Part shown: one piece after another, positions 5,589 to 56,519 of the stretch
Position numbering within the stretch: the stretch's first letter is position 1
Layout: every line of letters starts with the position of its first letter
Assembly: GCA_017610205.1 (NCBI GenBank)
Contig: JAFCCL010000004.1
Location: 32,001-96,000 of the forward strand
Length of the DNA: 64,000 nt
Reading direction: 5' to 3'
Source of the DNA: Candidatus Iainarchaeum sp.
GTDB lineage: Archaea > Iainarchaeota > Iainarchaeia > Iainarchaeales > GCA-2688035
Made by a program: the position numbers and the translations under genes
The notes under the pieces: model-generated
Told to the model about the DNA's origin: nothing
What the model saw: only the letters and a program-made list of their open reading frames with translations
Databases searched by the model: none

Positions 5589-5633
5589 TTAGCTTCTTTG
5601 CCCAATTGCAACCTAATTCCTTTGCCCAATTGC
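5589..5633 (-). repeat. Duplicated 3' end of hel308 (14-bp exact core 5596-5609 / 5620-5633)
   Basis: Gene ends AIGQRN*; downstream copy reads AIGQRS*. Confidence 0.75.
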
Positions 5634-7718
5634 TTCCTTTACCTTTTTTGCAACACCCTCACCCAAAATTCTTGACAGGTCCTTTTTGTCAATTTTTTTC
5701 AAATCTGAAACAGACCTTACATTGCTGCGCCAAAGCCTTCTTGCCCTCGCCCTTCCAATATTTCTTACCTCTGTAAGGCACAAAAGTTCCTCTTTTACAC
5801 CATACTTCAGCCGTTTCCTAAGCTTTGACAACGCAACAAAATGCATTTCAAGATTCAAAAGTTTTGCAATCTCAAGGGCAGAATAGCAAAGCCAGTCACA
5901 GCGATTAAGTTTTGCATGCAAAATTCCAGGCTGTGTTTTAAAGTCATCCATAATTGTTTGTTCCCTTGCCTCATCAATCCACAGTCCAATCATTTCAGCA
6001 GTGTTAAATTTTCGCAAAAGATTTAAGTCAAAAAACATTTCGCTGTCAAGATTAATAGGCATTTCAAGCTTGTGCAACTGCAATTGCTCCCAGAGCTCTG
6101 GTTCCCTTGCCTTTGGAACAGAAAGCCAGGGTATCATTTCACTGCAGTTGCATAAAAGGAAAAGATAGGAAAGTGGTGAAAATTTTGAAGAGGAATTCAT
6201 TCCCTTAATCATTTCAAAAGCACTCATTGGATCAAGATAGAGTTCGCTTATGCGCCTGCCCAAAGCAGTTGCCTCAATTCTTTTTTCATCAGATTCAACA
6301 AAGCCCATTTCCTCAAGCTGTTCAAGCACACTCTGCAGCTTTTCAAACAAAGCCTGCATGTTTCCAAATTGTTTTGCATAAAATGTTTTTTTGAAAAAGG
6401 ATTCAATGCTTGCAAGGTCAAAAACAAAATTGCTTGCAACAAGGGCAAGCATGTGCATTCTAAGAACTGGTTCAACCCCAAGCCTTGACCCAATAGGCTC
6501 TATTGCTCCGTTGACATATTTTTCCAAAAGCTCGTCTTTTTCGGTTTCGCACCTTGCCACAATAATTCCTCTTCCCTCCGTGTCATAGCGCGGTCTTCCA
6601 GCACGTCCAACTTGTTGTTTGAATTCAGCAACAGGAATGCGAACCATTCCAGCAGCAGTGTACCTGTAAAGCGACGGAATTATCACAGTATGGCTTGGAA
6701 GGTTGACGCCAGCGCAAAGCGTCGGCGTGGCAGCAATAAGCCTTACTTTGTTTGACCTAAATGCATCTTCAACCAAAGTCCTTTGCTTTGAAAGCAATCC
6801 TGCGTGATGAAAGGCAACTCCTTTTGAAACAAGACTGGAAAGTTTTCTGCATTGTTCGGTTGGAGACTCCAAGACCGAAAGAATTTTTTCACCTTCCTTT
6901 CCTAAATCATTTTTTTCCTCATCCTTCAGCTCTTTTTCAACAAGCGGAGCAAGCTGTGCAGCAATATTTTCAGCCCTCTTTCTGGTGTTTGCAAAAATCA
7001 TTGCCTGCTTTCCTTTAGCAAACAACGTGTCCTTAACCAATGCCTTTACAGGCTCTTTCAAATCAAGCTGTTCTCTTTTTCCCTTTCCATAATCTATTTC
7101 ACCATCAAAAAAAATTCCTTCCCTTAAAGGAATTGGCCTGTAATTGCTTTCAACCAATTCGGCTCCAAGCCATTCCGAAAGCTCTCCTGCATTTGGAATT
7201 GTCGCACTCAAAGAAAGAATTCTTAGCCGTGGATTAAGATGCCTCAATTTTGTTACAGTCATTTCAATTGTCGGACCCCTGTCAGAGCCAAGCATGTGAA
7301 CTTCGTCAATTACAAGCAGTGCAACAGACACAAGCCAGTCAGCCCTGTGGCGAAGCAATGAATCAAGCTTTTCATAAGTTGAGAAAATGATGTCATAATT
7401 TTGCAAGTGTCTGCTGCTTGAATCAAGTTCTCCTGTACTAAGCCCTGCTCTTATTTTTAATTCAGAACAATACTTTTTTTTGAATTCAGAAAAATGCTCA
7501 GAGGCAAGGGCTCTCAAAGGACAGGTGTAAATTACTTTTCGTTTTTTGTTCATTATTGAATCCAGTGAAGCAATTTCTGCAAGCAAAGTCTTTCCTGACG
7601 CAGTTGGCGCAGAAACAACAACGCTTTTTTCAAAAAAACCCTTTTTCAATGCCTTAGCCTGCATTGGATTAAATTTGGAAATTCCACTAAGCTTTAACGC
7701 CTGCTTTTTTGCATCCAT
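5613..7718 (-). CDS. hel308: Ski2-like ATP-dependent DNA helicase Hel308
   Basis: APTASGKT, DEVH, LSAT, FHHAGL, QQVGRAGRP, C-terminal HhH (NIGRARARRL). Confidence 0.95.
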   Translation of the reverse strand: MDAKKQALKLSGISKFNPMQAKALKKGFFEKSVVVSAPTASGKTLLAEIASLDSIMNKKRKVIYTCPLRALASEHFSEFKKKYCSELKIRAGLSTGELDSSSRHLQNYDIIFSTYEKLDSLLRHRADWLVSVALLVIDEVHMLGSDRGPTIEMTVTKLRHLNPRLRILSLSATIPNAGELSEWLGAELVESNYRPIPLREGIFFDGEIDYGKGKREQLDLKEPVKALVKDTLFAKGKQAMIFANTRKRAENIAAQLAPLVEKELKDEEKNDLGKEGEKILSVLESPTEQCRKLSSLVSKGVAFHHAGLLSKQRTLVEDAFRSNKVRLIAATPTLCAGVNLPSHTVIIPSLYRYTAAGMVRIPVAEFKQQVGRAGRPRYDTEGRGIIVARCETEKDELLEKYVNGAIEPIGSRLGVEPVLRMHMLALVASNFVFDLASIESFFKKTFYAKQFGNMQALFEKLQSVLEQLEEMGFVESDEKRIEATALGRRISELYLDPMSAFEMIKGMNSSSKFSPLSYLFLLCNCSEMIPWLSVPKAREPELWEQLQLHKLEMPINLDSEMFFDLNLLRKFNTAEMIGLWIDEAREQTIMDDFKTQPGILHAKLNRCDWLCYSALEIAKLLNLEMHFVALSKLRKRLKYGVKEELLCLTEVRNIGRARARRLWRSNVRSVSDLKKIDKKDLSRILGEGVAKKVKEAIGQRN

Positions 7719-7741
7719 TCAAATAATTTTCCATGAATGGC

Positions 7742-7777
7742 TTTAAAAGGAAAAGCAGGGTAGCTTTCCGGTAAAAA
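7742..7777 (-). promoter_or_regulatory. hel308 promoter: TATA-like TTTAAA plus upstream 13-bp motif (TTTCCGGTAAAAA on + strand)
   Basis: TTTAAA at 7742-7747, 24 nt from the start; motif at 7765-7777 recurs at 9239, 29736 and 32045. Confidence 0.55.
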
Positions 7778-7778
7778 A

Positions 7779-7867
7779 TTAATTCGCAGAACATTCTGAA
7801 GATTCAACAAGCTGGTTGAAAGAATTAACTTCAGGAACATTCAGATGATTCAACAAGCTGGTTGAAA
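7779..7867 (-). repeat. Duplicated 3' end of the lipoprotein gene (33 bp, 7789-7821 / 7835-7867)
   Basis: Two mismatches, both synonymous; FNQLVESSECS* vs FNQLVESSECSAN*. Confidence 0.85.
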
Positions 7868-8409
7868 TAAGAAAGGTTTTCCGGGCGATTTTCCTTGTCA
7901 TTCATTAAAAGCACTGCAACAATCTTGTTATTGCAAAAAGTAACTGCAATATCTGACAAAACAGTGGTTTCTTCGTCCGATGCTTCTGATTCAAGCACAA
8001 CCCAGTCAAGCTGCCCTATTCTTTTTATTTCAGGATGGCTGGACATGTTTATTCCTGAAATTTCTGTTGCATTAATCCAATCAAGTGGAATTTCAGATAC
8101 GTTGGAATATCCCCTTTCATTGTCAGCCATTAAAATTCCTATAAAACTCATTTCCGAATCATCGCCTTCGTTCTTCATAAGCAAAAAAACCGGTTCACTT
8201 CCAGTATCAGAAACCAGTGCATTGAAAATCGCCTGACCTAAAGGGGCATTAGTCCAGTCAATCCATTCACTGCTTGCAGGTGCAATCATGCTAAAGCCAT
8301 ATTTTTCAAAAGACTTTGGTTCCTCAATTGGCTCTGGCGCAGAACCAAGGCATCCGCTGAAAGCAACAACTGCAAGAAAAAAACATGCAAGAAAAATTCC
8401 TTTTTTCAT
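7831..8409 (-). CDS. Predicted lipoprotein, unknown function
   Basis: Signal peptide with lipobox-like AFSGC; acidic soluble domain. Confidence 0.75.
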   Translation of the reverse strand: MKKGIFLACFFLAVVAFSGCLGSAPEPIEEPKSFEKYGFSMIAPASSEWIDWTNAPLGQAIFNALVSDTGSEPVFLLMKNEGDDSEMSFIGILMADNERGYSNVSEIPLDWINATEISGINMSSHPEIKRIGQLDWVVLESEASDEETTVLSDIAVTFCNNKIVAVLLMNDKENRPENLSYFNQLVESSECS

Positions 8410-8464
8410 AACCTAAAAAAAGACCGAAATTGTATTTAAAACTTGCCTTATTTAAAAAAAAATG

Positions 8465-8974
8465 TTAAAATTGTTTTTTCCCTGAAAAAAATAGGAATGC
8501 AAGAACTGAAAAGGCAATCAAAGGCAGCAAAAGAACGGAAAATTCCGGAACAGGAGGCGGTTTGGAAATGAAAAGAGTTAAAGTCTTGAACTTTTGCGCA
8601 TGCAGGGAAGGGATGCCATCACCAACAGTTGGATAAAAGAAATAAAGGCCAGGTCCCCAGTTTCCTTGAACATTAACAGTAAAATTATGATTATCAGTGT
8701 TACCAACAGCCACAGGAATTGAACTTAAGCTGCTAGCAATAAATTTTTGGACACCTGCACTATCCTTAACAACAAGGCCAACAGTTGTACTGCCATCAGT
8801 GTCGCCAATATTCCTAATCACCACATCAACATCAACATTCACAGAACCTGCAGGGCCAACAGAAACAAAAGTATCTGACAAATCAAAGGAAAAAATCTGG
8901 AACTCGGCTTGGGCAAAAGCGTTGCCTGCAAAAAACAGAACAAAAAGCAGTGAAAGGAAATGCAATAATTTCAT
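8465..8974 (-). CDS. Secreted single Ig/CARDB-like domain protein with VPEF-CTERM anchor
   Basis: Signal peptide; C-terminus PPPVPEF + TM helix + KK. Confidence 0.8.
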   Translation of the reverse strand: MKLLHFLSLLFVLFFAGNAFAQAEFQIFSFDLSDTFVSVGPAGSVNVDVDVVIRNIGDTDGSTTVGLVVKDSAGVQKFIASSLSSIPVAVGNTDNHNFTVNVQGNWGPGLYFFYPTVGDGIPSLHAQKFKTLTLFISKPPPVPEFSVLLLPLIAFSVLAFLFFSGKKQF

Positions 8975-9076
8975 TCACATAAAAAAAGGCAAAAGGAGTA
9001 TTTAAAGCTTGACAAAGCCCTAAAAGCTTGACCATCTTGCAAGTTCCTGCATTGCATTTATATCCTGGTCAAGAGC

Positions 9077-9190
9077 ATGAGCCAAAACCAGGTTACTTTT
9101 TGAACACCTGCCATTTTTTTGGGCCTTGACTTGCATTGGATTAAACCATGAAATGCCATAGAGCCCAAGAACCTTTTTTTTCACATTCGT
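9077..9190 (-). pseudogene. Decayed copy of the hel308 5' end
   Basis: TNVKKKVLGLYGISWFNPMQVKAQKNG vs Hel308 MDAKKQALKLSGISKFNPMQAKALKKG (16/27 identical); ACG in place of ATG; TTTAAA at similar spacing. Confidence 0.8.
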
Positions 9191-9256
9191 GTAATTAATT
9201 GGTTTGTAAATGGGTTTAAAATTAAGGCAAGGAGTTGGTTTCAGGTAGAAAAAAAT

Positions 9257-9511
9257 CTACTCAAATATTATTTTTTCAATTTCTGACTTCATTTTGACAT
9301 TGAGTGAAACATGCAGGCCATAGCCAGTGGGCTTTTTCACAATTATTCCTTCTCTTGCAAGCTGCTCCAATTCTTTCTTGACCTCTTTCCACAACTCTTT
9401 TGGAAAGCCTTTGGGAATGTTGTCAAAAGCAGTGTGCTTTCCGCCCCACCACCTGTGCCTAACCATTTTGCGCAAAATTCGCCTTCTAATCCCAAAAGAA
9501 GAAAGTTTCAT
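9257..9511 (-). CDS. Small basic winged-helix-like hypothetical protein
   Basis: WGGKHT...IPKGFP...LEQLAREGIIVKKPTGYGLHVSLN pattern; 84 aa. Confidence 0.7.
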   Translation of the reverse strand: MKLSSFGIRRRILRKMVRHRWWGGKHTAFDNIPKGFPKELWKEVKKELEQLAREGIIVKKPTGYGLHVSLNVKMKSEIEKIIFE

Positions 9512-9581
9512 TTATTGAAACATTAAGAGTAAAATATTTAAACTTAATTGTGGCTAGTAAAATATAGATTTAGATAAATAT

Positions 9582-9929
9582 TTGAAGGTGAATGATGCAA
9601 TGACTAAAGACAAATCCTTGTTTGTGGAATTTTTTGGAGACTATCCAATAATTAGGGTGCTGGACTTCCTGATAGAAAATGACATTTTTGACTACTCAAA
9701 AAAAGACATTGGCAGGAATGCCGACGTTTCCTGGAACACGCTGGAAAATTTTTGGAGTAGGCTGGAGGAAACAGGGGTTGTAACCTACACCAGAAAGGTT
9801 GGCAAGGCAAAAATGTACAAGGTCAACACAAAAAACCAAGTGGTGCAGCAGCTGATTGAGCTGGACAACAAGTTAATGAAAAATTCAATGGAAAAACTTG
9901 AGCCAGAAAAACTAAAAGCGCTTGCGTGA
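9582..9929 (+). CDS. Winged helix-turn-helix protein
   Basis: RVLDFLIE...YSKKDIGRNADVSWNTL...LEETGVVTYTRKVGKAKMYKVN. Confidence 0.8.
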   Translation: MKVNDAMTKDKSLFVEFFGDYPIIRVLDFLIENDIFDYSKKDIGRNADVSWNTLENFWSRLEETGVVTYTRKVGKAKMYKVNTKNQVVQQLIELDNKLMKNSMEKLEPEKLKALA

Positions 9930-10059
9930 AAAATATAAGTTTATAATATTAGAAAAAGATACGATTAATGAGGTAAGAACAATTCCAAGACTAACGAAGA
10001 AACCTTTCATTACAAAGACCTGGAACAACAAACGGTAAAAAGTAAAGACAAAAAGTAAT

Positions 10060-10713
10060 TCAAAAGCTTGACCATCTTGCAAGTTCCTGCATTGCATTTA
10101 TATCCTGGTCAAGAGCTGCAAGCCTTTTTTTCAATTCGGTGATTTTGCGATTGCTTTGCTCCATTCTGAACTTTTGCAGTAGGTCAGCATATTGTGCAAC
10201 CTTTTTGCTCTTTTTGTAAACAATACTTTCGTCAACAGTTTGCACAAGCTGTTTCCTGTAATCAAGGTCTGAAACAAATGTTTTGACCATTGGCTTCCAC
10301 CTTGAATCAGCAACAAGGTGAACAGGCAGGCTTACCTTTTCTGAATCAGCCCTGTAATCTTTGTCAACCGCACATTTTGCCAAATGTTTCCAGTACAATG
10401 GCTCCTTCAATTTTTTGAGGTGGTGTATGTTGTGATAGCTTTTTGCACCGCTGAATTTCTTTTGCCAGCTTTCAAGCCTTGTATTGTACTTATGGTGCAA
10501 TGACCTTGTTTCCTCAATTTTTTTCCTAAGATGTGTTTTGGTTGGATACAACAGCTTTGGCCATGCGCCCTCATTTGGAGAAATGTGAAGCACGCCGCCT
10601 TTTGACAAATAGTGCTTTAAGGCAGCAACCCTTGCAGCTTCCTTTTCAATATTAATGTCAACAGGCAGCATTTTTTGCAGTTGCCCAAAAGAGCTTACAA
10701 GATCTTTTCTCAT
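10060..10713 (-). CDS. Hypothetical basic protein with C-terminal coiled coil
   Basis: 217-aa ORF divergent from nac; no recognised family. Confidence 0.75.
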   Translation of the reverse strand: MRKDLVSSFGQLQKMLPVDINIEKEAARVAALKHYLSKGGVLHISPNEGAWPKLLYPTKTHLRKKIEETRSLHHKYNTRLESWQKKFSGAKSYHNIHHLKKLKEPLYWKHLAKCAVDKDYRADSEKVSLPVHLVADSRWKPMVKTFVSDLDYRKQLVQTVDESIVYKKSKKVAQYADLLQKFRMEQSNRKITELKKRLAALDQDINAMQELARWSSF

Positions 10714-10789
10714 GTAAAAATTATGTGTGGCGCAGGTTAAAAAGCTTTTTCTACCAGAAGAATTTTGAAAAAGAACAGGAGTTGATTAA

Positions 10790-11131
10790 ATGTTTCCAGG
10801 AATGAAAGGAATGGACCCAAGAGCAATGCAAAGAATGATGAAACAAATGGGCATAAAAAACGAAGAAATGGAAGCCGAACGAGTTGTAATTGAAGGAAAG
10901 ACAAAAAAGATAATTATTGAAAATCCAAGCGTAAACATTGTGGTAATGCAGGGAAAAAAAACCTACACCATAATGGGAGACGAAACAGAGCAGGAAAAAG
11001 GAATAAGCAGGGAAGACATTGAAATGGTTGTAAAACAGGCAAATGTTGACGAAAAAAAAGCGGAAGCCGCTTTGAAAAAAAACGAAGGAGACATTGCAGC
11101 CGCAATTCTTGAACTAAAAGGCGATGAGTAA
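10790..11131 (+). CDS. nac: Nascent polypeptide-associated complex protein
   Basis: MDPRAMQRMMKQMGI NAC N-terminus, UBA-like C-terminus (GDIAAAIL). Confidence 0.95.
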   Translation: MFPGMKGMDPRAMQRMMKQMGIKNEEMEAERVVIEGKTKKIIIENPSVNIVVMQGKKTYTIMGDETEQEKGISREDIEMVVKQANVDEKKAEAALKKNEGDIAAAILELKGDE

Positions 11132-11360
11132 AAAATTAAAGCAATTCAAATGTGGGAAAAAAGTCTTCAAATTGCATAAAAAAAATTCTTCAAATTTGTT
11201 TACATAACCCAGCCCAAACATCTTTTACTGCAGATTACTCAGTACAATTGTCAGATCATCATCGGCAAGTAGTATGAATCATACAAAAGGGTTTAAAGAA
11301 TAGGCAAGCAATAGATAAGTTTTAAATATTGATAGGCACATAATTAGTATGTGATAAATT

Positions 11361-11603
11361 ATGAGGAATATTACTTTGTCAATAACAGATGAAACAAAAA
11401 ACAAAATGGAAAGCCACCCTGAAGTGCGTTGGTCCAATGCAGTAAGGGTAATTATTGAGCGAAAACTCAACGACTTTAGAATAGCAGAGGCACTAGCCCA
11501 AAAAAGCAGGCTGACTGAAAAAGATGTTCAGGCCCTCTCGAAAAAAGTTAACAGAGCAATGGGAAAGCACGCAAAGGGGCTATTAAATGAGGGTTACAGT
11601 TGA
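11361..11603 (+). CDS. Antitoxin (VapB/RHH-like)
   Basis: NITLSI...HPEVRWSNAVR; overlaps the PIN gene. Confidence 0.8.
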   Translation: MRNITLSITDETKNKMESHPEVRWSNAVRVIIERKLNDFRIAEALAQKSRLTEKDVQALSKKVNRAMGKHAKGLLNEGYS

Positions 11604-11997: not shown

Positions 11998-12070
11998 AAG
12001 GGCGAACTGAAACGAAAATTAAAGTATATTACCCTTAATACACCAGACTGATTCTTCAAATTGTACAAAA

Positions 12071-13481: not shown

Positions 13482-13549
13482 ATTGCTTAGATTTTGCACA
13501 AATTGCCATTACTTAACTTTTCCATAATTTCCATTGCTTAGGTTTTGCA
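13482..13549. repeat. Three degenerate 17-bp repeats at about 25-bp period
   Basis: attgcttagattttgca (13482), attacttaacttttcca (13508), attgcttaggttttgca (13533). Confidence 0.55.
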
Positions 13550-13556
13550 TTTACAG

Positions 13557-15416
13557 CTAACTTTTTCGCCTTTCTGAAAAGAACAGTATTGCAAGAGCTG
13601 AAAAGGCAAGCAACGGAATAAAAACAAGGTCAAGCTCTGGCACTGCAGCAGGCTGACCCACTGTGAAAAATACTGATTCCGTATCCGAAGGATCAAACTT
13701 GCCAACCTCATAAGCCTCTACAATAAGCTGGTAGGAACCGGAAGGAAGGAGAGAAACATCAAGGTTGTGTATTAAATCGGCGTGAATTGCTGAATCCCAA
13801 ACTTCTGTTCCTTCCAAAGCAATTGATTTATGGACTCCGCTTACACTAACCTCAGGAACTATAGGCAAGCCTGTAACAGCATCAACAACAGAAAGCTTTA
13901 TTTCAGCATTGACAGTATTATCACCAGAATTCAAAACAGCAATATCTAATGAAGTAAAACTTGGAGTTGCAGAATCAAGTGCAAGAGGCTCTGCAAACAA
14001 TTGAGTAATATTCAAAACACCCTGACCTGTGGAAGCGACAACATTGAAAGGTTTTGTCACAGTGCCCTTGCTGCCAGCAACCAATTCAAATGTTTCAGCA
14101 CTTATTACATAATCATCAATGTCAAGGATTTCTTCTCCAAGACCACCGGCTGCAATCAAATCAAAAGACCCAACTGTTCCAGCTAGAATGGGTTGTGCTC
14201 CAGTAGTAATTGGAATGCCAACAGTAGGTATTTCTGCCTCAACATAAATATTGTAAGCTGTTAAACTGCTTACAGCAACATCAGCCCTTGCCATTGAAAA
14301 CTCGCTTCCCCTTGGCAAAGGAATCGGAGAAGCAAAAACCTTTGTGCCAAAAACAAAAACACGCGCTCCAGGAACACTGCAGACAACATTGGCCACACCA
14401 TTAGGAAGAGAAACAACAATTGGACCCATTTGCCCAAGCGCGTCATAGGGACCGCAGGTAAAAGTGCATATTCCATTTGCACCGCCACTGCATGAAAAAT
14501 CAGCTGCAGAAACACCAGCGCTTCCGCAGTTAATTGATAAATAATCAGGAGGCATTGTATCAAAACCTGCATAAGCAACAGTAACACCAACAATTCCGCT
14601 TTCAATTTCAATCTCTGAAGGAGAAAAACCTACTCCGCAAACACCTGTCCCTGGAACGCTAACAGATATTGTAGTGGTGTCAGTATCCTGCAATCCACCT
14701 AAATCAGTCACAGTCAATGTAACGTCAGCAATGCCCTCATCACTACAAGTAATTGAAGGCTTCATGCCAGTTGCAGTTACAGTACAACCAGGATCGACAG
14801 CCGGGTCATTTGCAATAACCCAATCATAAGTCAGCATAGAGCAATTAGTAAATCCCACACCACAATCTTCATCATCCATAGAACCAGAACCGTCCAAATC
14901 AACAGCATTAGGCAATATTATAACATGCGGAGCACCTGCATCAGCAACAGGAGCAGTATTCAAAACCTCAGCACTGCTGCAGCATACTTTTGTTGCATAA
15001 GGTGCATCTGTGCATGTTGCAATATGGGCATTTGTTGTATCAGAAATTGTTGCAATGCATTCTTCATCAGCATTACAGCTTGCACGATAACTGCATTTCA
15101 AATCACCATAATAAACAGTTGTAGGATAACCAGCTGTTGCAACATGGGCATTGGTTTGACCTGAAAGTGTAAGAACATCGTTAGTTGCAGTGCTAGCATG
15201 CGGGCTTGCTCCAGTGTATTCTTTGCCAAAGATGTCGTCATAACATATTTCTGTAGTGTAACCTCCTGCACCGTTCCAGAGTTCAGCATGTGCGTTGGTT
15301 GGACTGCTAATTCTCATTATAAGTTGGGAATCGTCACCAGGCAATCCTGCACAGGCAGCAAAAGCTGAGGGAAAAAGAAAAAGTGCAAGCAATGCAATGA
15401 AAGCAATTTTGTTCAT
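13557..15416 (-). CDS. Secreted multidomain surface protein (TNAH-repeat domain, PKD/Ig-like domains, VPEL-CTERM)
   Basis: Signal peptide, 3x SxxTNAH, APVADAG...LDGSGSMD PKD motif, PAAVPEL + TM + RRK. Confidence 0.85.
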   Translation of the reverse strand: MNKIAFIALLALFLFPSAFAACAGLPGDDSQLIMRISSPTNAHAELWNGAGGYTTEICYDDIFGKEYTGASPHASTATNDVLTLSGQTNAHVATAGYPTTVYYGDLKCSYRASCNADEECIATISDTTNAHIATCTDAPYATKVCCSSAEVLNTAPVADAGAPHVIILPNAVDLDGSGSMDDEDCGVGFTNCSMLTYDWVIANDPAVDPGCTVTATGMKPSITCSDEGIADVTLTVTDLGGLQDTDTTTISVSVPGTGVCGVGFSPSEIEIESGIVGVTVAYAGFDTMPPDYLSINCGSAGVSAADFSCSGGANGICTFTCGPYDALGQMGPIVVSLPNGVANVVCSVPGARVFVFGTKVFASPIPLPRGSEFSMARADVAVSSLTAYNIYVEAEIPTVGIPITTGAQPILAGTVGSFDLIAAGGLGEEILDIDDYVISAETFELVAGSKGTVTKPFNVVASTGQGVLNITQLFAEPLALDSATPSFTSLDIAVLNSGDNTVNAEIKLSVVDAVTGLPIVPEVSVSGVHKSIALEGTEVWDSAIHADLIHNLDVSLLPSGSYQLIVEAYEVGKFDPSDTESVFFTVGQPAAVPELDLVFIPLLAFSALAILFFSERRKS

Positions 15417-32417: not shown

Positions 32418-32472
32418 TTATACTTTTGCTGTTATCTTTTTAGGATTCTTTTGCTGTTATCTTTTTAGGATT
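32418..32472 (-). repeat. Perfect 25-bp tandem duplication of the taw1 3' end
   Basis: 32423-32447 = 32448-32472; NPKKITAKES* vs NPKKITAKV*. Confidence 0.85.
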
Positions 32473-33396
32473 TTTCTTTTTGCTTAAAAGAACAACCCTG
32501 CTTGGCTTGCTTTCAGCTATTAGGTAATATCCCAAATGTTCATTGATTTTTTCAGCAAAGCTTTTGACTTCTTCATGCAAGGGCATGTTTTCAATGGCAA
32601 GGCGCTTTCTGCTGTATCCCACAAACATGTAACTTTTCACTTCCACAAAATCAGGAGAAGCCTTTTCAATAAGCTTTGCAAATTCGTTTTCGCGGGACAT
32701 GTTCTTGCCTTTAATTGCAGTAATCCTGATTGCCTTTCTTGTATTCAATGAAGGCATTAGCTCAAGGCTTTGATTAAGCTTTTGCCAACTGTCTTTAACA
32801 AGCGGGACATTAATTGTCTTGTGCATTTCCTTGTTTGGAGCTTCAAGTGAAAGATAAAGCTGTGTAGGCAAATACATTTCCGCAAGAGTTTTTGGATGCA
32901 TGCCATTGCTTACAAGAAATGTTGAAAATTTCCTTAGGTCAAATTCTTCAATTAATTCTCCAATTTTTGTGTAAAGTGTAGGTTCACCGGCCAAAGAAAT
33001 TGCAACCTGATTTGGGTTGTTTGCCTCCCAAAGCTTTTTTTCACCAATTTTTTCTCTGAATTCACCATAGCCACTTAACAGAATGCGTTGCTGTTTTATT
33101 GCCTCGTCAATTATTTCATCTGGCTCGTCAAACTCTTTTGGAAACTTTACATACTTTGTTAAAGGTCGCCAGCAAAACTGGCAGTTTTGGTCACACCAGG
33201 AAACAGCCGGAGTCATTTGAAGGCAGCGGTGGCTTTGAATTCCGTAAAACTTTTGCTTGTAACAAACCTCACTCTTGTAAATTGAGGCTTTGGTCCAATG
33301 GCAAAGTTTTACTGCGCTATGGCCAAAGAGCTTGTAGTGCTGCCTTGCAAGCATTTCAATTGTTTCTTTAGGCAAATAGTCTTCTGTACAATGCAT
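32440..33396 (-). CDS. taw1: 4-demethylwyosine synthase TYW1
   Basis: HSAVKLCHWT, CYKQKFYGIQSHRC, CDQNCQFCWRP, AISLAGEPTLY. Confidence 0.95.
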   Translation of the reverse strand: MHCTEDYLPKETIEMLARQHYKLFGHSAVKLCHWTKASIYKSEVCYKQKFYGIQSHRCLQMTPAVSWCDQNCQFCWRPLTKYVKFPKEFDEPDEIIDEAIKQQRILLSGYGEFREKIGEKKLWEANNPNQVAISLAGEPTLYTKIGELIEEFDLRKFSTFLVSNGMHPKTLAEMYLPTQLYLSLEAPNKEMHKTINVPLVKDSWQKLNQSLELMPSLNTRKAIRITAIKGKNMSRENEFAKLIEKASPDFVEVKSYMFVGYSRKRLAIENMPLHEEVKSFAEKINEHLGYYLIAESKPSRVVLLSKKKNPKKITAKES

Positions 33397-50380: not shown

Positions 50381-50416
50381 CCTATTTTAAAAAAAAGACT
50401 TGGCATAAAAGCAAAA

Positions 50417-51124: not shown

Positions 51125-51216
51125 GAGTATTTACCTTTTGAAAACTGTTAATAATCAAAACCAAAACATTTTATTGCAGTTTTCATCTTTATTTGCACCA
51201 CTGGCAATTGAACATA

Positions 51217-51930
51217 TTAAGGATAACCATAGACGTCACAAGAATAATCCGAAAAACAATCAGAGTCATCACAGTCAGGAAGACTGTCAGCGTCATTGTC
51301 AAACGAGTCAGAACAATTATACTCAGTTCCATACTCACAGGTTCCACCACCAGGACCAGCTAGACCGTCACAGTCTTCATCAGCACAATCTATATCACCG
51401 TCACCGTCATCATCAATGCTATTGTTGCAGATTTCTGTTGGAGATGGGGGAGAAACTACTTCACCAGAAGATAATCCGGTAATCACAACAGATTGTTCAA
51501 GTTCAAAAATGTCAGTATAGTCCATGTTAATTGTTCCTGAACCACTGCCTGAATAGTTGATTCCTGCAAACAACAATTCACCACCTGCCAAAATCACAAT
51601 ATCGTATTCACCATTATCACTAATCGACACATCATTCAAAAAAACCGACGGGCTAAAGCCAAAACTTCCCTTAAGGTCAACATCGGTAACAGTAATTCTT
51701 CCACCAGTAGCATTTTGAAGCAAAACAGTTACTTGGCCTCCATCAGTACTGTTGCCTTTGACCAGTATTTTTCCAGGGACTGATGATGAAAAAGAAAGAG
51801 TCTCTGTTGGTGGCGAAATAATGAAAACCATGACCCCTATAATTGTTGCGATTATTATAAGCGCCCATCCATAAGTTACTAAATATTCAAGACCAGCCTG
51901 GGCTTTTGAACTAAGGGGATTTAAAACCAT
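51217..51930 (-). CDS. Class III signal (pilin-like) protein with Cys-Asp repeats
   Basis: KAQAGLEYLVTYGW, QNATGGRI; EICNNSIDDDGDGDIDCADEDC and a second degenerate copy. Confidence 0.85.
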   Translation of the reverse strand: MVLNPLSSKAQAGLEYLVTYGWALIIIATIIGVMVFIISPPTETLSFSSSVPGKILVKGNSTDGGQVTVLLQNATGGRITVTDVDLKGSFGFSPSVFLNDVSISDNGEYDIVILAGGELLFAGINYSGSGSGTINMDYTDIFELEQSVVITGLSSGEVVSPPSPTEICNNSIDDDGDGDIDCADEDCDGLAGPGGGTCEYGTEYNCSDSFDNDADSLPDCDDSDCFSDYSCDVYGYP

Positions 51931-52170
51931 AGCTAAAATATAAAAAGCAAACTAATATATAAAAGCTTATTTTATCAAACTTTGAGAAAAAAATTATTTA
52001 AAACAATAAACAGGTTTCAAGAACAGGCCTTGCCTGGGGTTTTTTTGCATTCAAAAAAAGAGAAGCAGGAAGAAGTATTTAATTATTACATTGCTCAAAG
52101 GATAGCTATTTTTAAACTTTATAATAATAATAATATCATTAATGAACTTCTTTTTGAAGAGGTGTTTTTT

Positions 52171-53604
52171 TTGAAGATTAACCCGTATATTTTTAGAAAC
52201 TATGACATTCGAGGCATTGTTCCAGACGAATTAAATGACAAAGAAGTTGAAGCCATAGGAAAGGCTTTTGGAACCTTTTTGCGAAGAAGAAAAATACTGC
52301 AGGCAGTAGTAGGCAGGGATTGCCGTTTAAGCGGAAAAAAATTTCAAAAAATATTCATCAAAGCTTTGACTGAAATTGGAATTGATGTCATAGACATTGG
52401 AATGGTTATGACTCAAATGGTTTACTATGGGCAATACAGATTCCAGACTAATGGAGGAACCATGATTACCGCATCCCACAACCCGCATAATTTTAATGGA
52501 TTTAAACTGTGCATTGGTTTTTCCAAAACCACTGAAATTAAGGAATTGGAGGAAATAAGAAAAACTGTGGAAACTGAAAATTATTTCAAATCCGAAAAAA
52601 AGGGAACAGTGGTAAAAAAAGACATCAAAGACGATTACAACAATGATGTCCTGAAAAGAGTGAAGATTAAAAAAAAGTTTAAAGTGGTTGTTGATTTTAG
52701 GCACGGTACACCTGCACTCTATGTGCCTGAGTTGTTCAAAATGGCTGGCTGTGAAGTAATTAGTAAAAGAGCCAATGTTGACGGAAGCTTTCCTGATGGA
52801 ACACCTGACCCTACAGACGAACGTTTTATGAAAGAACTGGCTAAAAGCGTTGTGGAAGAAAAAGCCGATTTTGGAATGGCTTTTGACGGAGACGGGGACA
52901 GAATTGGCACAGTTGACGAAAAAGGAAGGATTTTGTGGAACGATGTGCTTGTAGCAATTTTTGCAAAAGAAATACTTGGAAGGTTTCCTAAATCAAAAAT
53001 AATTTACAACACGCTTTGTTCACAGGTTGTTAAAAAAGTCATTGAAAAAAATGGCGGAATTCCAATTATGTGGCTGACAGGACATGCATTCATTAAATCC
53101 AAAATTGCTGAAGAAGACGCCGCTTTTGGCGGGGAATTATCAGGGCACTTCTTTTTCAACGAAAACGCTTACGGCCATGATGACGGCACCTACGCCGCTC
53201 TGAGGCTAATGGAATATTTGTCTGAAAAAAACCAGTCACTAAGCCAATTGTATGAAAGTTTTCCGGCATATATTTCTTCGCCTGAAATAAAAATAGGCTG
53301 CCCAGATGACAAAAAGGTTGAGATAATAAAGGATGTGTCTAAAAAATTCAAAAAGAAATTTCCAAACGCAACAATCACCGATGAAAACATTATACCAGAC
53401 GATGACGGAACAAGAGCTGATTTCGATGACGGAATGATTATTTTTAGACACTCACAAAACGGCCCTTATATTACAATTAAATTTGAGGCAAAAGACCAAA
53501 AAACATATGACGAAAGAAAAGTCTATGTCAGAAAAATGCTTGAAAGCTATCCTGAAATGATTTGGAAAGACCAATTATGCGTTAACTTGGATTCATTGAA
53601 ATAG
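52171..53604 (+). CDS. Phosphomannomutase/phosphoglucomutase
   Basis: YDIRG, TASHNP, DGDGDR, GELSGH; TTG start after GAGGTG. Confidence 0.93.
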   Translation: MKINPYIFRNYDIRGIVPDELNDKEVEAIGKAFGTFLRRRKILQAVVGRDCRLSGKKFQKIFIKALTEIGIDVIDIGMVMTQMVYYGQYRFQTNGGTMITASHNPHNFNGFKLCIGFSKTTEIKELEEIRKTVETENYFKSEKKGTVVKKDIKDDYNNDVLKRVKIKKKFKVVVDFRHGTPALYVPELFKMAGCEVISKRANVDGSFPDGTPDPTDERFMKELAKSVVEEKADFGMAFDGDGDRIGTVDEKGRILWNDVLVAIFAKEILGRFPKSKIIYNTLCSQVVKKVIEKNGGIPIMWLTGHAFIKSKIAEEDAAFGGELSGHFFFNENAYGHDDGTYAALRLMEYLSEKNQSLSQLYESFPAYISSPEIKIGCPDDKKVEIIKDVSKKFKKKFPNATITDENIIPDDDGTRADFDDGMIIFRHSQNGPYITIKFEAKDQKTYDERKVYVRKMLESYPEMIWKDQLCVNLDSLK

Positions 53605-53617
53605 AGGACAGGATGAA

Positions 53618-54394
53618 ATGAAGAAATCCATTGAATTGGAAACCGCGATTAAGGCAGCAAAGGAAGCCGGAAAAATTCTTTACGAGAGTGCGCAGACAGC
53701 AGTTGTTGTGGAAAAAAAAGACAGGCAGGATATTTGTACTGACGCTGATTTGAAGTCCGAAAAGAAAATAATTGAAATTCTGGAAAAGCAGTTTCCAGAA
53801 CACAACATTGTTTCAGAGGAAAAGGGAAGGATTGAAAAGGAATCAGAATTTACATGGATAATTGACCCATTAGATGGAACAAAGAACTATATTAGGGGCA
53901 TGACTATTTTCACTGTTTCAATTGCTTTGGCAAAAGGCAGCGAAATAATTCTTGGGGCGGTCTTTGAGCCGGCAACAGGCAGAATGTATTATGCCGAGAA
54001 AGGCAAAGGTGCCTTTGTAGATGGACAAAAGATGAAGGTCTCAAAAATTTCTGAATTGGAAGATGCTCTGGTATATTTTGATAAGGGAAACTTATCCAAC
54101 CTTGACAAAAATGAATGGGAAAAAGTAAACAGCCTGCAAAAATCTGTTTACAGAATAAGGGATTTTGGATTAGGGTCACTTGCACTATGCTATCTTGCAC
54201 TAGGCGGTTATGATGCCTACATTGGCGGCAATACAACTAAGATAATGGATATTGCAGCAGGAATAATTATTGCACAGGAAGCAGGTGCAAAAATTAGCGA
54301 CCAAAAAGGCGGAAAGATTAACTTGTTTGAAAGCAGGAAGATAATTGCAAGCAATGGCCTTTTGGACAAACAGTTGTTGAAAATTTTTGAGTAG
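53618..54394 (+). CDS. Inositol monophosphatase / FBPase family
   Basis: SEE, WIIDPLDGTKNY, DIAAG. Confidence 0.9.
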   Translation: MKKSIELETAIKAAKEAGKILYESAQTAVVVEKKDRQDICTDADLKSEKKIIEILEKQFPEHNIVSEEKGRIEKESEFTWIIDPLDGTKNYIRGMTIFTVSIALAKGSEIILGAVFEPATGRMYYAEKGKGAFVDGQKMKVSKISELEDALVYFDKGNLSNLDKNEWEKVNSLQKSVYRIRDFGLGSLALCYLALGGYDAYIGGNTTKIMDIAAGIIIAQEAGAKISDQKGGKINLFESRKIIASNGLLDKQLLKIFE

Positions 54395-54400
54395 AAAATT

Positions 54401-55366
54401 CTATTCGGATTCTTCTCTAAAAAATTCTGCAGCGTGCTCTGGAGAAACGGTGTTTATGATGCAGCCAGTGCAGTTTTCAAAACCACCCCAGGTAATTAAA
54501 CGCGGTACAATTTTTACGTGAATGTGGTGTTTTTTTCCAGGAGGTGCTTCGTGAAAGTAAACATTGAACGGAGCCTGCAATTCTGAAATTTTTGAAAGAG
54601 TTTTTTTCAAAAGCTCTGCAAGTTGCAATATCTCGTCATTGTTCAAATCTGAAAAATGGTTAACGTGTTTTTTTGGAAAAATGCCTGCTTCAAACTCAAA
54701 AATCGAAGCATAAGGAGTAAATGCAAGAAATGAATCATTTTCAGAAATTCTTCTAGGCCCCTTTCTTTCAAGACTAACAACCTTGCAATAGGGGCATTTC
54801 CTATGCTTTTTATGATACTTTGCAATTGCCTTTATTTCCCTTTCAATATTTGCAGGAAGCTTGTTGTAGGCAATTGTTTGCGTGTGCTCGTGCACTAATG
54901 AAGTGCCTGCTTCAAGCCCGTGATTTTTAAACATTGCCACAAATTTTATGCCTGGAATTTTATACAGGGCATCACGCCTTTTGAACAAAAGGCTCAAATA
55001 CTTTGCAATTCTTTCAACAGGCAATTCATGAAATTGCTGCTTGTGTCGTGGAGTTTCAACAATAACTTCGTGCTTTCCAAAAGCGTCTCCTTTAGTAAAA
55101 AACTCGCCCTCGGTTTTGACCTGCGGCTTTCCTTCAGTTGTAACCGCAGGAAACTTGTTTTCAAAAACTCTTAGAACCCACTCCCCGTTTTCTTCAACGC
55201 GGGCAATCTCAGGAGGAGTCATTTTTTCATTTCCCTGACAAAAAGGACAGGGGCCTGAATCATTAATCTTTGGATGTTGTTTGATGAAATCACGCGGCCT
55301 TTTGGCCCGCTCGGTGTTGACAATCACCCATCTGTCAAAAATATAATCCTTTCTAAGCTCGTGCAT
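54401..55366 (-). CDS. galT: Galactose-1-phosphate uridylyltransferase family
   Basis: RAKRP, CPFC, NKFP, HEVIVE, GTSLVHEHTQ. Confidence 0.9.
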   Translation of the reverse strand: MHELRKDYIFDRWVIVNTERAKRPRDFIKQHPKINDSGPCPFCQGNEKMTPPEIARVEENGEWVLRVFENKFPAVTTEGKPQVKTEGEFFTKGDAFGKHEVIVETPRHKQQFHELPVERIAKYLSLLFKRRDALYKIPGIKFVAMFKNHGLEAGTSLVHEHTQTIAYNKLPANIEREIKAIAKYHKKHRKCPYCKVVSLERKGPRRISENDSFLAFTPYASIFEFEAGIFPKKHVNHFSDLNNDEILQLAELLKKTLSKISELQAPFNVYFHEAPPGKKHHIHVKIVPRLITWGGFENCTGCIINTVSPEHAAEFFREESE

Positions 55367-55506
55367 TAATGGCTCACTAAGGCAATTATAATACGGAAAG
55401 GGCATTTAAATCTTGCCCAACTCCAAAAAGAATAAAAACACGGAATTGCCGGCTATTGTCTAAGGCAAAAGGAATAAAAAGAGGGAAACTGTTACTTGTT
55501 TTGATT

Positions 55507-56496
55507 ATGGCTTTTGACATTGTAAGCATTGGAAATGCAACAATTGACGCTTTTATCTGCGTTGATGGAAAGGTCAAAGAAGGCAATTTGCTTTTACCTG
55601 TTGGTTCAAAGAAAGAAATACAAAGCATTTTTTACAGCACAGGCGGCGGAGCAACAAACACTGCTGTTGGATTCAAAAGGCTTGGATTAAAGACAGGGAT
55701 TTTGGCGGCGGTTGGAAATGACCCAGGCGGAAAAATTGTACTGCGTGAGTTGAAAAAAGAGGGGATTAGCACAAGGCTTATTTCAAGGCTGCAAAATTAT
55801 GAAACAGCTTACAGTGCAATTTTAACAGGTTTTGGACACGACAGAATTATCCTGGTTTATGGAGGGGCTATAAGGCATTTGGGAGAAGAAAGACAGGTGC
55901 ATTGGTCATGGCTAAGCCAAACAAAGTGGATGCATATAACAAGTTTTCATGCAAAACTGGAAATTATGAAAAAGATTCTTGGCTTTGCCGAGAAAAAAGG
56001 AATAAGTGTTTCATTCAACCCAGGAATGAGCGAAATAAGCCTTGGACTAAAAAAAATAATCCCGTTGCTAAAAAAAGTTGACATTCTTCTGCTTAACAGA
56101 AAGGAAGCTAAAATTTTAACAAAAGAAAAGAACGTGAAAAAACAACTGCAAAAACTTCAGGAAATTGTCCCACTTGTTGTTGTAACAGAAGACAAAAAGG
56201 GCGCGCATGCATTTGACGGAAGCTTTTACTACTACAAGCCTGCATTAAATGCAAAAATTGCTGACACAACAGGCGCAGGAGACGCATTCCACGCAGGGTT
56301 TGTTTCACAAATAGTAAAAGGAAGAAGCGTTGAAAAGGCCTTGAATGCAGGAACTGCAAATGCAACAAGCACAATAATGCATTTTGGTGCAAAAAACAAA
56401 TTGCTTACACAACACGGAATTGAAGAATTCCTTGAAAAGCATGAAACAAACAGGACAAAAGTTAAAAAAAACAGAATGACTTACAAAGCCCACTAA
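55507..56496 (+). CDS. PfkB family carbohydrate kinase
   Basis: GGGATNTA, DTTGAGDAF. Confidence 0.92.
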   Translation: MAFDIVSIGNATIDAFICVDGKVKEGNLLLPVGSKKEIQSIFYSTGGGATNTAVGFKRLGLKTGILAAVGNDPGGKIVLRELKKEGISTRLISRLQNYETAYSAILTGFGHDRIILVYGGAIRHLGEERQVHWSWLSQTKWMHITSFHAKLEIMKKILGFAEKKGISVSFNPGMSEISLGLKKIIPLLKKVDILLLNRKEAKILTKEKNVKKQLQKLQEIVPLVVVTEDKKGAHAFDGSFYYYKPALNAKIADTTGAGDAFHAGFVSQIVKGRSVEKALNAGTANATSTIMHFGAKNKLLTQHGIEEFLEKHETNRTKVKKNRMTYKAH

Positions 56497-56519
56497 AAAA
56501 CAGAATGGCTTATACATAA
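56466..56519 (+). repeat. Duplicated 3' end of the PfkB gene (18 bp, 1 mismatch)
   Basis: 56466-56483 / 56495-56512; KNRMTYKAH* vs KNRMAYT*. Confidence 0.7.

What the first reader, a model, noticed from the sequence alone, without database searches (positions are those of the whole stretch)
5589..56519. Recurrent 'echo' 3' ends: genes followed by a second copy of their own terminus with its own stop
Seen in five unrelated genes: hel308 (AIGQRN* / AIGQRS*, 5589-5633), the lipoprotein (FNQLVESSECS* / FNQLVESSECSAN*, 7779-7867), gene 10060 (55 bp exact, echo 1040 bp away), taw1 (NPKKITAKES* / NPKKITAKV*, 32418-32472) and pfkB (KNRMTYKAH* / KNRMAYT*, 56466-56519). Every echo keeps an in-frame stop. 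In the lipoprotein the nucleotide differences are synonymous, so both copies look like formerly functional alleles rather than slippage products. Inference: DNA is repeatedly inserted at gene 3' ends, the incoming DNA restores the gene, and the old terminus is pushed downstream. The mechanism could be homology-anchored illegitimate recombination of taken-up DNA or an undescribed 3'-end-targeting cassette exchange. The taw1 case alone could be simple slippage.
Basis: partly seen in the sequence, partly recalled or inferred. Interest (0 to 1): 0.78.

Follow-up and report, generated by a model that had tools for sequence, protein, structure and literature searches.

The report
Duplicated gene ends in DPANN archaeon
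Many genes of this tiny archaeon are followed by a dead second copy of their own last codons, mostly left by small harmless head-to-tail duplications, and in a few cases by the insertion of small mobile gene cassettes.

Summary
All five echoes are in the sequence as described. Genome-wide, 22 of 1348 genes repeat their last 60 nt within the next 200 nt, against 0.7 per permuted replicate.

There are two kinds.

(1) Short echoes (hel308, lipoprotein, taw1, pfkB) are small tandem or near-tandem duplications of 15-60 nt that span or abut the stop codon.
- Congeners carry a single terminus, and the downstream copy is the ancestral one.
- Differences between copies show no bias to synonymous sites (7 synonymous, 24 not).
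- The same repeats fill intergenic DNA at similar excess and are in frame inside genes.
This fits ordinary duplication kept where it is harmless, not cassette exchange.

(2) The 55-nt echo is a target duplication around a 985-bp insert. The insert carries a horizontally mobile pair of small winged-helix genes and no recombinase. Three more cargo inserts flanked by long repeats lie elsewhere in the genome.

Short echoes are far commoner here and in the nearest sampled congener than in four genomes of other families. That difference is unexplained.

The scan has noted similar echoes in other genomes before. Reads could not be checked.

The parts
5589..5633 (-). hel308 end with its echo. The gene's stop is at 5613-5615. 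The 14-nt block at 5620-5633 (gene) is repeated at 5596-5609 (echo). The echo's stop is at 5589-5591. The period is 24 nt and in frame.
   Evidence: The echo is also present in congeners G002 (three copies) and G004 (two copies). G002's middle copy ends GAATTAG, like G000's working end.
5613..7718 (-). hel308 helicase gene (701 aa).
   Evidence: Orthologues were found in 21 of 21 relatives.
7779..7867 (-). Lipoprotein gene end with its echo. The 33-nt block at 7835-7867 (gene) is repeated at 7789-7821 (echo). The period is 46 nt. The echo's stop is at 7779-7781.
   Evidence: G002 and G006 have a single terminus (C-x-x-x-stop) directly before the conserved ACCGGAAG motif. In G000 the echo occupies that position.
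9022..9076 (-). Distal copy (echo) of the last 55 nt of gene 10060-10713. It is followed by TAG and GGCTTTGT, as at the native gene end in G002.
9077..10061 (.). 985-bp insert (cargo) between the two 55-nt copies.
   Evidence: G004 has no insert at this site. G002, G006 and G005 have other DNA there.
9257..9511 (-). 84-aa winged-helix protein gene, one half of the mobile pair.
   Evidence: Found in 20 of 61 genomes of the order, up to 86% identical across families. Model pLDDT is 92.9. Fold matches are SarA, ArsR and pNOB8 AspA-type winged helices, best E-value 7.7e-3. No Pfam, PHROG or NCBIfam hit.
9582..9929 (+). 115-aa winged-helix protein gene, the other half of the mobile pair.
   Evidence: Found in 26 of 61 genomes, up to 79% identical across families. 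Weak DUF7342 match: 26.8 bits, below the 31.6-bit cut-off.
10060..10713 (-). 217-aa gene of unknown family. Its last 55 nt (10062-10116) are the proximal repeat copy. Its stop is TGA, supplied at the junction with the insert.
   Evidence: In other genera its homologue lies directly upstream of hel308.
32423..32472 (-). Perfect 25+25-nt tandem duplication inside the last codons of taw1 (32440-33396). It shifts the frame, so the end changes from ..ITAKV* to ..ITAKES*.
   Evidence: G002 and G004 end ..ITAKV* with one copy.
56466..56519 (+). pfkB end with its echo. The 18-nt block at 56466-56483 is repeated at 56495-56512 (period 29). The echo's stop is at 56517-56519. The echo overlaps the end of the convergent NUDIX gene (56510-56938).
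   Evidence: G002 and G004 end K(T/S)RITST* at the echo's position, against the NUDIX gene.

Best explanation
Two ordinary processes leave 'echoes' of gene ends in this DPANN archaeon.

(A) Small tandem duplications of about 15-60 nt arise all over the genome, by microhomology-mediated duplication or slippage (inferred). They persist where they do no harm. Inside genes only in-frame ones persist. Between genes they persist, and across or just before a stop codon they persist. In that last case the upstream copy still gives a complete or nearly complete C-terminus with a stop, and the downstream copy, which is the old end, becomes untranslated DNA that decays. Once two copies exist, the array can gain or lose units. 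This explains the stacked copies at hel308 and the arrays of three or four copies elsewhere.

(B) Less often, a piece of foreign DNA of about 0.6-1.6 kb is inserted at or inside a gene's last codons together with a duplication of 18-98 nt of the target. The result has the same look, but with cargo between the copies. In the window the cargo is a horizontally mobile pair of small winged-helix genes with no recombinase. The insertion therefore relies on host recombination or repair; the mechanism is inferred, not shown.

Shown: the anatomy, the excess over chance, single-copy ancestry in relatives, the neutral decay pattern, and the mobility of the cargo pair. Inferred: the molecular mechanism of duplication and of insertion, and selection as the cause of the 3' excess.
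For: Excess over chance:
- 22 genes against 0.7 per permuted replicate.
- 550 repeat pairs against 6 after shuffling.

Placement of 126 short-range clusters (period up to 70 nt) against uniform placement:
- coding 59 observed / 102.1 expected;
- intergenic 28 / 10.4;
- spanning a 3' end 25 / 5.5;
- spanning a 5' end 10 / 5.7.

Frame of the period: a multiple of 3 in 113 of 122 repeats within genes, but in only 8 of 37 at 3' ends.

Anatomy and decay:
- 15 of 25 3' clusters are head-to-tail with a spacer under 6 nt. For the other 10, spacer-to-flank identity is 0.55 against a null of 0.41, much as in intergenic DNA.
- The 31 differences in coding columns fall 11/11/9 over codon positions, 7 synonymous and 24 not.
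- 13 of 15 perfect two-copy duplications run at least 2 nt beyond two units.

Relatives:
- At least one congener has a single terminus for 7 of 8 genes examined. The eighth, hel308, has two or more copies in G000, G002 and G004 and one copy in more distant relatives.
- The downstream copy matches the ancestral end or flank in 5 of 5 judgeable cases.
- All 8 echoes sit at true C-termini.

Cargo class:
- The 55-nt echo keeps the ancestral TAG and flank, and G004 has the empty site.
- The cargo pair occurs in 26 and 20 of 61 genomes, at 79-86% identity across families in which hel308 is 50-56% identical.
- Homology between 13 copies of the pair ends at the two stop codons.
- Flanking direct repeats of 18, 24, at least 45 and 55 nt occur at 4 of 15 loci.
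- In G064 the echo continues like the congener's native terminus.
- Other cargo-bearing echoes in this genome: GGR with an ATPase_2/DUF234 gene, and acs with a RelE-like (by eye) two-gene pair, here called RelE/RHH.

Literature: microhomology-mediated tandem duplications are reported across bacteria and archaea (preprint 10.64898/2026.02.28.708716, passages read). They are reported as neutral and depleted from coding DNA (PMC13167724, listing abstract only).
Against: - A pure tolerance filter predicts that 3'-spanning repeats scale with intergenic ones in every genome. They do in G000 (25 against 28) and G004 (6 against 6). They do not in four genomes of other families, where 2 span a 3' end against 27 intergenic (Fisher p = 7e-5).
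- In G000 the 3' excess (4.5x) tends to exceed the intergenic excess (2.7x), p = 0.06.
- Echoes recur at the same gene in different species with different units, in 4 of 8 genes examined. This is more than a low uniform rate predicts.
- In hel308, pfkB and the 601-aa gene the repeated block is nearly exact, but the few bases around the stop differ completely between copies. This fits a duplication with filler better than uniform decay.
- The taw1 duplication has no flanking microhomology.
- The 5' control is weakened because start codons were not verified.
- Genes were called with a simple ORF rule.
- Two of the four 3' clusters in G006 are hairpin-element repeats, not coding echoes.
- No reads could be laid on the duplications.
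Confidence: 0.72

Rival explanations
1. One break-repair process makes both kinds. Staggered or resected double-strand breaks are filled in and joined. This gives small tandem duplications, sometimes with a few filler bases, and gives long target duplications around captured DNA. A lineage-specific source of breaks near gene 3' ends explains the excess in this genus.
For: - The size ranges overlap: periods of 12-64 nt for short repeats and target duplications of 18-98 nt around cargo.
- Three short echoes have the pattern block, filler, block.
- The inserted DNA has no fixed ends, and the cargo encodes no recombinase.
- 3'-spanning repeats run at about 18 per Mb in the genus sample and 1.25 per Mb in four other families, at similar intergenic densities.
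- Fill-in at break ends is a described route to small tandem duplications in eukaryotes (PMC8355091, listing abstract only).
Against: - Ku was found in 0 of 21 relatives, and FEN1 is present in 19 of 21 including G000. Neither obvious repair difference is seen.
- The stop sits anywhere within the duplicated unit, so there is no precise target.
- The mobile pair is not significantly biased to 3' ends: 12 of 13 loci face at least one, against 9.75 expected.
- The control genomes give small counts.
Confidence: 0.13
2. DNA taken up from relatives is joined by homology inside the gene and illegitimately downstream, or exchanged as a 3' cassette. Each echo pair would then be two formerly functional alleles.
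For: - The GGR echo differs from the working end at 4 positions, all synonymous. Its spelling and TGA stop resemble G004 and G005, while the working copy resembles G002.
- The acs echo keeps an open 20-codon frame ending in the same K-stop at about 78% identity.
- The differences in the lipoprotein echo are synonymous.
- Homology-facilitated illegitimate recombination is a described process (PMC3240628, listing abstract only).
Against: - Genome-wide, differences are 7 synonymous against 24 not.
- 6 of 25 3' clusters are perfect duplicates and 15 of 25 are head-to-tail. Foreign alleles would not give this.
- In G064 the new gene end is read out of the insert itself, not from a donor allele.
- The process would need donor fragments that end just after a stop codon, again and again.
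Confidence: 0.08
3. The echoes are functional. They could be back-up stops for read-through, binding sites, or 3' RNA elements.
For: The hel308 echo is in frame behind a TAG and is kept in three species.
Against: - Only 8 of 37 periods are multiples of 3.
- The copies decay without regard to codon position.
- The echoes are absent from close relatives at most loci.
- The echoes share no motif.
Confidence: 0.03
4. The duplications are assembly artefacts of a metagenome-assembled genome.
For: No reads could be examined. The genome is a 24-contig draft.
Against: - The hel308 echo recurs in three independent assemblies, and the 266-aa gene junction duplication in two.
- Diverged copies cannot come from collapsed or doubled reads.
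- Units of 25-47 nt are shorter than usual reads (inference).
Confidence: 0.03

Closest known systems
Microhomology-mediated or slipped-strand small tandem duplications (intergenic minisatellites, VNTRs)
   Same: - Head-to-tail copies of 15-60 nt.
- A few bases of overlap beyond two units in 13 of 15 perfect cases.
- Copy number varies between relatives.
- Depleted, and in frame, within coding DNA.
- Reported across bacteria and archaea (10.64898/2026.02.28.708716, passages read).
   Different: - Here they pile up across stop codons: 25 observed against 5.5 expected.
- They do so much more than in four genomes of other families.
- Some have unrelated filler around the stop.
- That preprint's main text has no occurrence of 'stop codon' or 'intergenic'.
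Direct repeats (att duplications) left by integrase-mediated insertion at the 3' ends of tRNA or protein genes
   Same: The gene stays whole. An identical copy of its end (55 nt) lies beyond the inserted DNA. The distal copy adjoins the old flank.
   Different: - The insert has no integrase.
- The same cargo pair sits at different genes in different genomes.
- Repeat lengths are 18, 24, at least 45 and 55 nt.
- The insert has no fixed ends.
Target-site duplications of transposons and miniature elements
   Same: Direct repeats of target sequence flank the insert.
   Different: - The repeat length is long and variable.
- No terminal inverted repeats or conserved ends: homology stops at the two stop codons.
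- No transposase.
Free-standing homing-endonuclease genes that bring a copy of the host gene's C-terminal codons (fungal mitochondria; recalled, not checked in any call)
   Same: An inserted gene sits at a host gene's 3' end, and the old terminus is displaced downstream.
   Different: The cargo here encodes two winged-helix proteins and no nuclease.

Membership tests
Small tandem duplication (microhomology-mediated / slippage) | Copies lie head to tail with no foreign DNA between them. | tested here: met
   15 of 25 clusters spanning a 3' end have a spacer under 6 nt. In the window, taw1 is perfect (25+25). The lipoprotein, hel308 and pfkB echoes have spacers of 10-13 nt.
Small tandem duplication (microhomology-mediated / slippage) | A short microhomology flanks the duplicated unit, so the repeat runs a few bases beyond two units. 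| tested here: inconclusive
   13 of 15 perfect two-copy duplications run at least 2 nt beyond two units. Four of these (17-39 nt) are partial third copies. taw1 has 0.
Small tandem duplication (microhomology-mediated / slippage) | Close relatives carry a single copy at the same place. | tested here: met
   7 of 8 genes have a congener with one terminus. hel308 has two or three copies in the three closest species and one copy further out.
Small tandem duplication (microhomology-mediated / slippage) | The untranslated copy decays neutrally. | tested here: met
   31 differences fall 11/11/9 over codon positions; 7 are synonymous and 24 are not.
Integrase-mediated integrative element (att duplication) | The element encodes, or is accompanied by, a site-specific recombinase. 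| tested here: not met
   The 985-bp insert holds two small winged-helix genes only. A recombinase acting from elsewhere was not excluded.
Integrase-mediated integrative element (att duplication) | The same element uses the same target sequence. | tested here: not met
   The repeat-flanked copies of the pair sit at four different targets in G000, G064, G072 and G029.
Transposon with target-site duplication | Fixed duplication length and defined element ends. | tested here: not met
   Repeats are 18, 24, at least 45 and 55 nt. Inserts are 651 to about 1600 bp. Homology between 13 copies ends at the stop codons.
Homology-facilitated illegitimate recombination / Campbell-type insertion | The duplicated segment carries donor-type (allelic) differences. 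| tested here: inconclusive
   Met for GGR (4 of 4 differences synonymous) and plausibly for acs. Not met for the 55-nt repeat (identical copies) or for G064, where the new end is read from the insert.
Homing-endonuclease gene insertion with duplicated C-terminus | A nuclease gene lies in the insert. | tested here: not met
   No nuclease domain or fold in either cargo protein.

The most novel reading that the evidence does not exclude
This genus has a process of its own that breaks DNA near gene 3' ends and repairs it with duplication. The by-products are stacked spare gene ends. The same repair captures small toxin-antitoxin-like cassettes between long target duplications. That would give these tiny archaea a way to gain genes without an integrase.
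Probability: 0.13. Interest if true: 0.65.

Novelty: new member of a known kind. Interest (0 to 1): 0.4.

Why it matters
The echoes are a clean natural record of how C-termini are remodelled. A small duplication replaces the last one to four residues, and the old end is left as a fossil that dates the event.

If the excess in this genus is real, it marks a lineage-specific mutational habit in DPANN archaea that can be measured by deep sequencing.

The inserts flanked by long target repeats show that small two-gene cassettes (a winged-helix pair, and pairs that look by eye like RelE/RHH and HicAB) and an ATPase_2/DUF234 gene move into gene ends without any recombinase of their own. How such modules spread is poorly understood.

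For annotation, echoes can be mistaken for frameshifts, pseudogenes or read-through extensions.

Tried and rejected
- Read support: for window 5000-10500 no public sequencing run was listed.
- Loss of flap endonuclease as a cause of frequent duplications: XPG_I was found in 19 of 21 relatives, including G000.
- End joining by Ku: found in 0 of 21 relatives (incomplete genomes, so not proof of absence).
- Nuclease or recombinase in the cargo: Pfam, PHROGs and NCBIfam gave nothing for the 84-aa protein. A PDB profile search gave only E > 0.3. Its fold is a winged helix.
- Cargo pair targeting 3' ends: 12 of 13 loci face at least one neighbour's 3' end, against 9.75 expected. This is not significant.
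- Fixed position of the stop within the duplicated unit: offsets are spread over the unit.
- Long-range echoes as a common class: among exact repeats of 20 nt or more at 300-20000 nt, only the gene-10060, GGR and acs ends qualify.
- The 78-nt repeats around HicAB as a dispersed element: only those two copies exist in the genome.
- Literature searches found no paper describing stop-spanning echoes in prokaryotes. Supplements were not seen.
Full report
OBSERVATION

All five cases are in the sequence as described.
- hel308 (5613-7718, minus strand) ends ..AIGQRN* (TAG). In the same frame it is followed by VAIGQRS*.
- The lipoprotein gene (7831-8409, minus) ends ..FNQLVESSECS*. It is followed 46 nt on, in another frame, by FNQLVESSECSAN*.
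- taw1 (32440-33396, minus) carries a perfect 25+25-nt tandem repeat at 32423-32472.
- pfkB (55456-56496, plus) ends ..KNRMTYKAH* and is followed by KNRMAYT*.
- The last 55 nt of gene 10060-10713 (minus) recur exactly at 9022-9076.

Pfam confirms the names taw1 and pfkB.

IS IT MORE THAN CHANCE?

The window is contig C19:32001-96000 of a 1.37-Mb, 24-contig genome with 38% G+C. Earlier notes of this scan call it a DPANN archaeon. I called 1374 genes with a simple longest-ORF rule, giving 88% coding.

The last 60 nt of each gene were compared with the next 200 nt for the 1348 genes with enough flank. A score of 14 or more was reached by 22 genes, against 0.7 per replicate when downstream regions were swapped between genes. 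The mirror test at 5' ends gave 12 against 0.7. The genome holds 550 local direct-repeat pairs (distance 6-300, score 14 or more), against 6 after block shuffling.

After removing low-complexity repeats and merging overlaps, 210 clusters remain. Restricted to periods of 70 nt or less there are 126. Their counts against the expectation from uniform placement are:

| Class | Observed | Expected |
|---|---|---|
| coding | 59 | 102.1 |
| intergenic | 28 | 10.4 |
| spanning a 3' end only | 25 | 5.5 |
| spanning a 5' end only | 10 | 5.7 |
| spanning both | 4 | 2.3 |

The 3' excess is strong (Poisson p about 1e-9). It exceeds the 5' excess (p = 0.01). It is not clearly above the intergenic excess (p = 0.06).

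WHAT THE SHORT ECHOES ARE

- Within genes the period is a multiple of three in 113 of 122 clusters. At 3' ends it is in only 8 of 37, so the echoes are not read.
- In 24 of 40 gene-echo pairs the echo's stop lies at exactly the homologous offset, because the repeated block contains the stop.
- The stop sits anywhere within the unit.
- Of the 25 clusters at 3' ends, 15 are head-to-tail with a spacer under 6 nt. The other 10 have spacers of 7-40 nt whose identity to the flank is 0.55, against a null of 0.41. Intergenic clusters look the same: 10 head-to-tail and 18 spaced, 0.49 against 0.40.
- The 31 differences between copies in coding columns fall 11/11/9 over the three codon positions; 7 are synonymous and 24 are not.
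- Of 15 perfect two-copy duplications, 13 run at least 2 nt beyond two units, as microhomology-mediated duplication predicts. Four of these are partial third copies, and taw1 has none.

RELATIVES

Congeners G002 to G006 were searched with eight of the proteins.

- taw1 ends ..NPKKITAKV* with one copy in G002 and G004. The 25-nt duplication is therefore new in G000. It lies inside the last codons, shifts the frame and changes V* to ES*. The 'echo' is simply the old end.
- pfkB ends K(T/S)RITST* in G002 and G004, directly against the convergent NUDIX gene. G000's echo holds that place. The new end carries 13 nt (CAAAGCCCACTAA) unrelated to the old one.
- The lipoprotein gene has one terminus (Cys, three residues, stop) before a conserved ACCGGAAG motif in G002 and G006. 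In G000 the echo sits there.
- The 601-aa, 252-aa and 207-aa genes are single-copy in G002, and the 601-aa and 252-aa genes also in G004.
- hel308 is different. G004 has two copies and G002 has three. G002's middle, decayed copy ends GAATTAG like G000's working end. Units have thus been added on the gene side one after another.
- G003 has its own in-frame echo (FKNSE*FKNSE*) at the 601-aa gene. G004 has its own echo at the 207-aa gene. G004 shares the 32-nt duplication of the stop/start overlap behind the 266-aa gene. Four of eight genes therefore carry echoes in more than one species.

All eight echoes lie at true C-termini, so they are not artefacts of broken genes.

THE CARGO CLASS

The 55-nt echo differs in kind.
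- The distal copy is followed by TAG and GGCTTTGT, as at the native end in G002. The proximal copy runs into TGA and unrelated DNA.
- G004 has no insert at this site. G002, G006 and G005 have other DNA there.
- The 985-bp insert carries a divergent pair of genes, 84 aa and 115 aa.
- The pair occurs in 20 and 26 of 61 genomes sampled from the order. It is 79-86% identical to copies in other families, where hel308 is only 50-56% identical. It therefore moves horizontally.
- Homology between 13 copies ends at the two stop codons.
- The 84-aa protein folds with confidence (pLDDT 92.9) as a winged helix. The best matches are SarA, ArsR-type regulators and the pNOB8 centromere-binding protein, all with E-values of 7.7e-3 or more. 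The 115-aa protein has a weak DUF7342 match below the cut-off. Neither is a nuclease or recombinase.
- Flanking direct repeats occur at 4 of 15 loci: 55 nt (G000), 24 nt (G064), at least 45 nt with three mismatches (G072) and 18 nt (G029).
- In G064 the 24-nt repeat lies 12 codons before the end of a 421-aa gene. The echo continues ELIELIG.., like the congener's native end ..ELIEKEII*. The working gene now ends ITRIL*, read out of the insert.

G000 has further examples.
- The last ~98 nt of a geranylgeranyl-reductase-like gene recur 1644 nt downstream, around an ATPase_2/DUF234 gene. The four differences are all synonymous and look allelic.
- The end of an acs-like gene recurs 708 nt downstream, around a RelE-like plus ribbon-helix-helix pair (named by eye from the ORF translations, no family search).
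- A HicAB-like pair (named by eye) lies between 78-nt repeats in intergenic DNA.

The variable repeat length, the different targets and the lack of fixed ends argue against an integrase or a transposase. Insertion by host recombination or break repair with target duplication is inferred.

WHAT DOES NOT FIT

The same census was run on 400-kb samples of four genomes of other families (G028, G014, G042, G027). Together they gave 2 clusters spanning a 3' end against 27 intergenic. G000, G004 and G006 together gave 35 against 39 (Fisher p = 7e-5). That is about 18 per Mb against 1.25 per Mb.

Two of G006's four clusters are hairpin-element repeats, so the excess is secure only for G000 and G004. 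A simple tolerance filter does not predict this difference.

Neither loss of FEN1 (present in 19 of 21 relatives) nor presence of Ku (0 of 21) explains it.

The block-filler-block pattern at hel308, pfkB and the 601-aa gene, and the recurrence at the same genes, are also left open. A lineage-specific break-and-repair process remains possible; I give it about 13%.

COMPARISON WITH WHAT IS KNOWN

- They are described as neutral and depleted from coding regions (PMC13167724, listing abstract only).
- Fill-in at break ends as a source of small duplications is described in eukaryotes (PMC8355091, listing abstract only).
- Six literature searches found no description of stop-spanning echoes in prokaryotes. 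Supplements were not available.
- Earlier notes of this scan report the same kind of echo in other genomes (leuC, KsgA, orc1, cdc48, giant viruses). Each was read as local duplication. I did not test those notes.

VERDICT

- The short echoes are ordinary small duplications kept at gene ends.
- The 55-nt echo is a target duplication around a mobile two-gene insert.
- The genus-level excess and the recombinase-free inserts are the parts worth following.
- No reads could be examined.

Noticed in passing
L013 2465-2562 and 4109-4206 (G000 C3:29465-31206): The last ~98 nt of a geranylgeranyl-reductase-like gene are repeated 1644 nt downstream, around a 455-aa ATPase_2/DUF234 gene. The four differences are all synonymous. 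One copy is spelled like G004/G005 and the other like G002.
   Followed up: partly
L177 (G000 C16:129464-130191): The end of an acs-like gene (..VPYLKKLVGYRGK*) recurs 708 nt downstream as an open, diverged copy (..VPYLKKLVGYRRK*), around a RelE-like plus ribbon-helix-helix pair. G000's acs is closest to G005 (89%), whereas other genes are closest to G002/G004. This hints at recombination within the genus.
   Followed up: partly
L178 (G000 C18:44477-45159): A HicAB-like pair lies between two 78-nt direct repeats that contain a hairpin. These are the only two copies in the genome.
   Followed up: partly
G000 C9:11763-13863: Three VapBC-like pairs lie in a row, two of them separated by the same 38-nt sequence. 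This is either a small array of cassettes or shared promoters.
   Followed up: no
window 7763-7772 (minus strand ACCGGAAAGC), and upstream of hel308 in L002-L012: An ACCGGAAG motif about 45 nt before the hel308 start is conserved across genera. It also follows the echo in G064. It is probably a promoter-proximal element.
   Followed up: no
window 7831-10059: In other genera of the family the homologue of gene 10060 lies directly upstream of hel308. In this genus two secreted or lipoprotein genes, plus variable small cargo, lie between them. The site behind gene 10060 is a hot spot of gene gain.
   Followed up: partly
window 13482-13550: A 25-nt unit is repeated 2.7 times. The array ends 7 nt downstream of the stop of gene 13557-15416 (minus). 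It is an intergenic array next to a gene end.
   Followed up: no
G000 C1:19917-20028 (L148) and C17:109991-110048 (L149): Tandem duplications of a stop/start overlap (ATGA) between two co-directional genes. Each extra unit carries gene 1's stop and gene 2's start, which leaves mini-ORFs. The C17 duplication is shared with G004.
   Followed up: partly
L161 (G003), tail of the 601-aa gene's orthologue: An independent 18-nt in-frame echo (FKNSE*FKNSE*) at the same gene that carries a 37-nt echo in G000.
   Followed up: no
L113 16697-16772 and L123 16155-16252 (G006): Repeated hairpin elements (AAGCCTTTTT..AAAAAGCCTTGGGAAAA) lie behind gene ends in G006. They also occur downstream of its hel308 (L003). 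They could be a small dispersed element or a terminator family.
   Followed up: no
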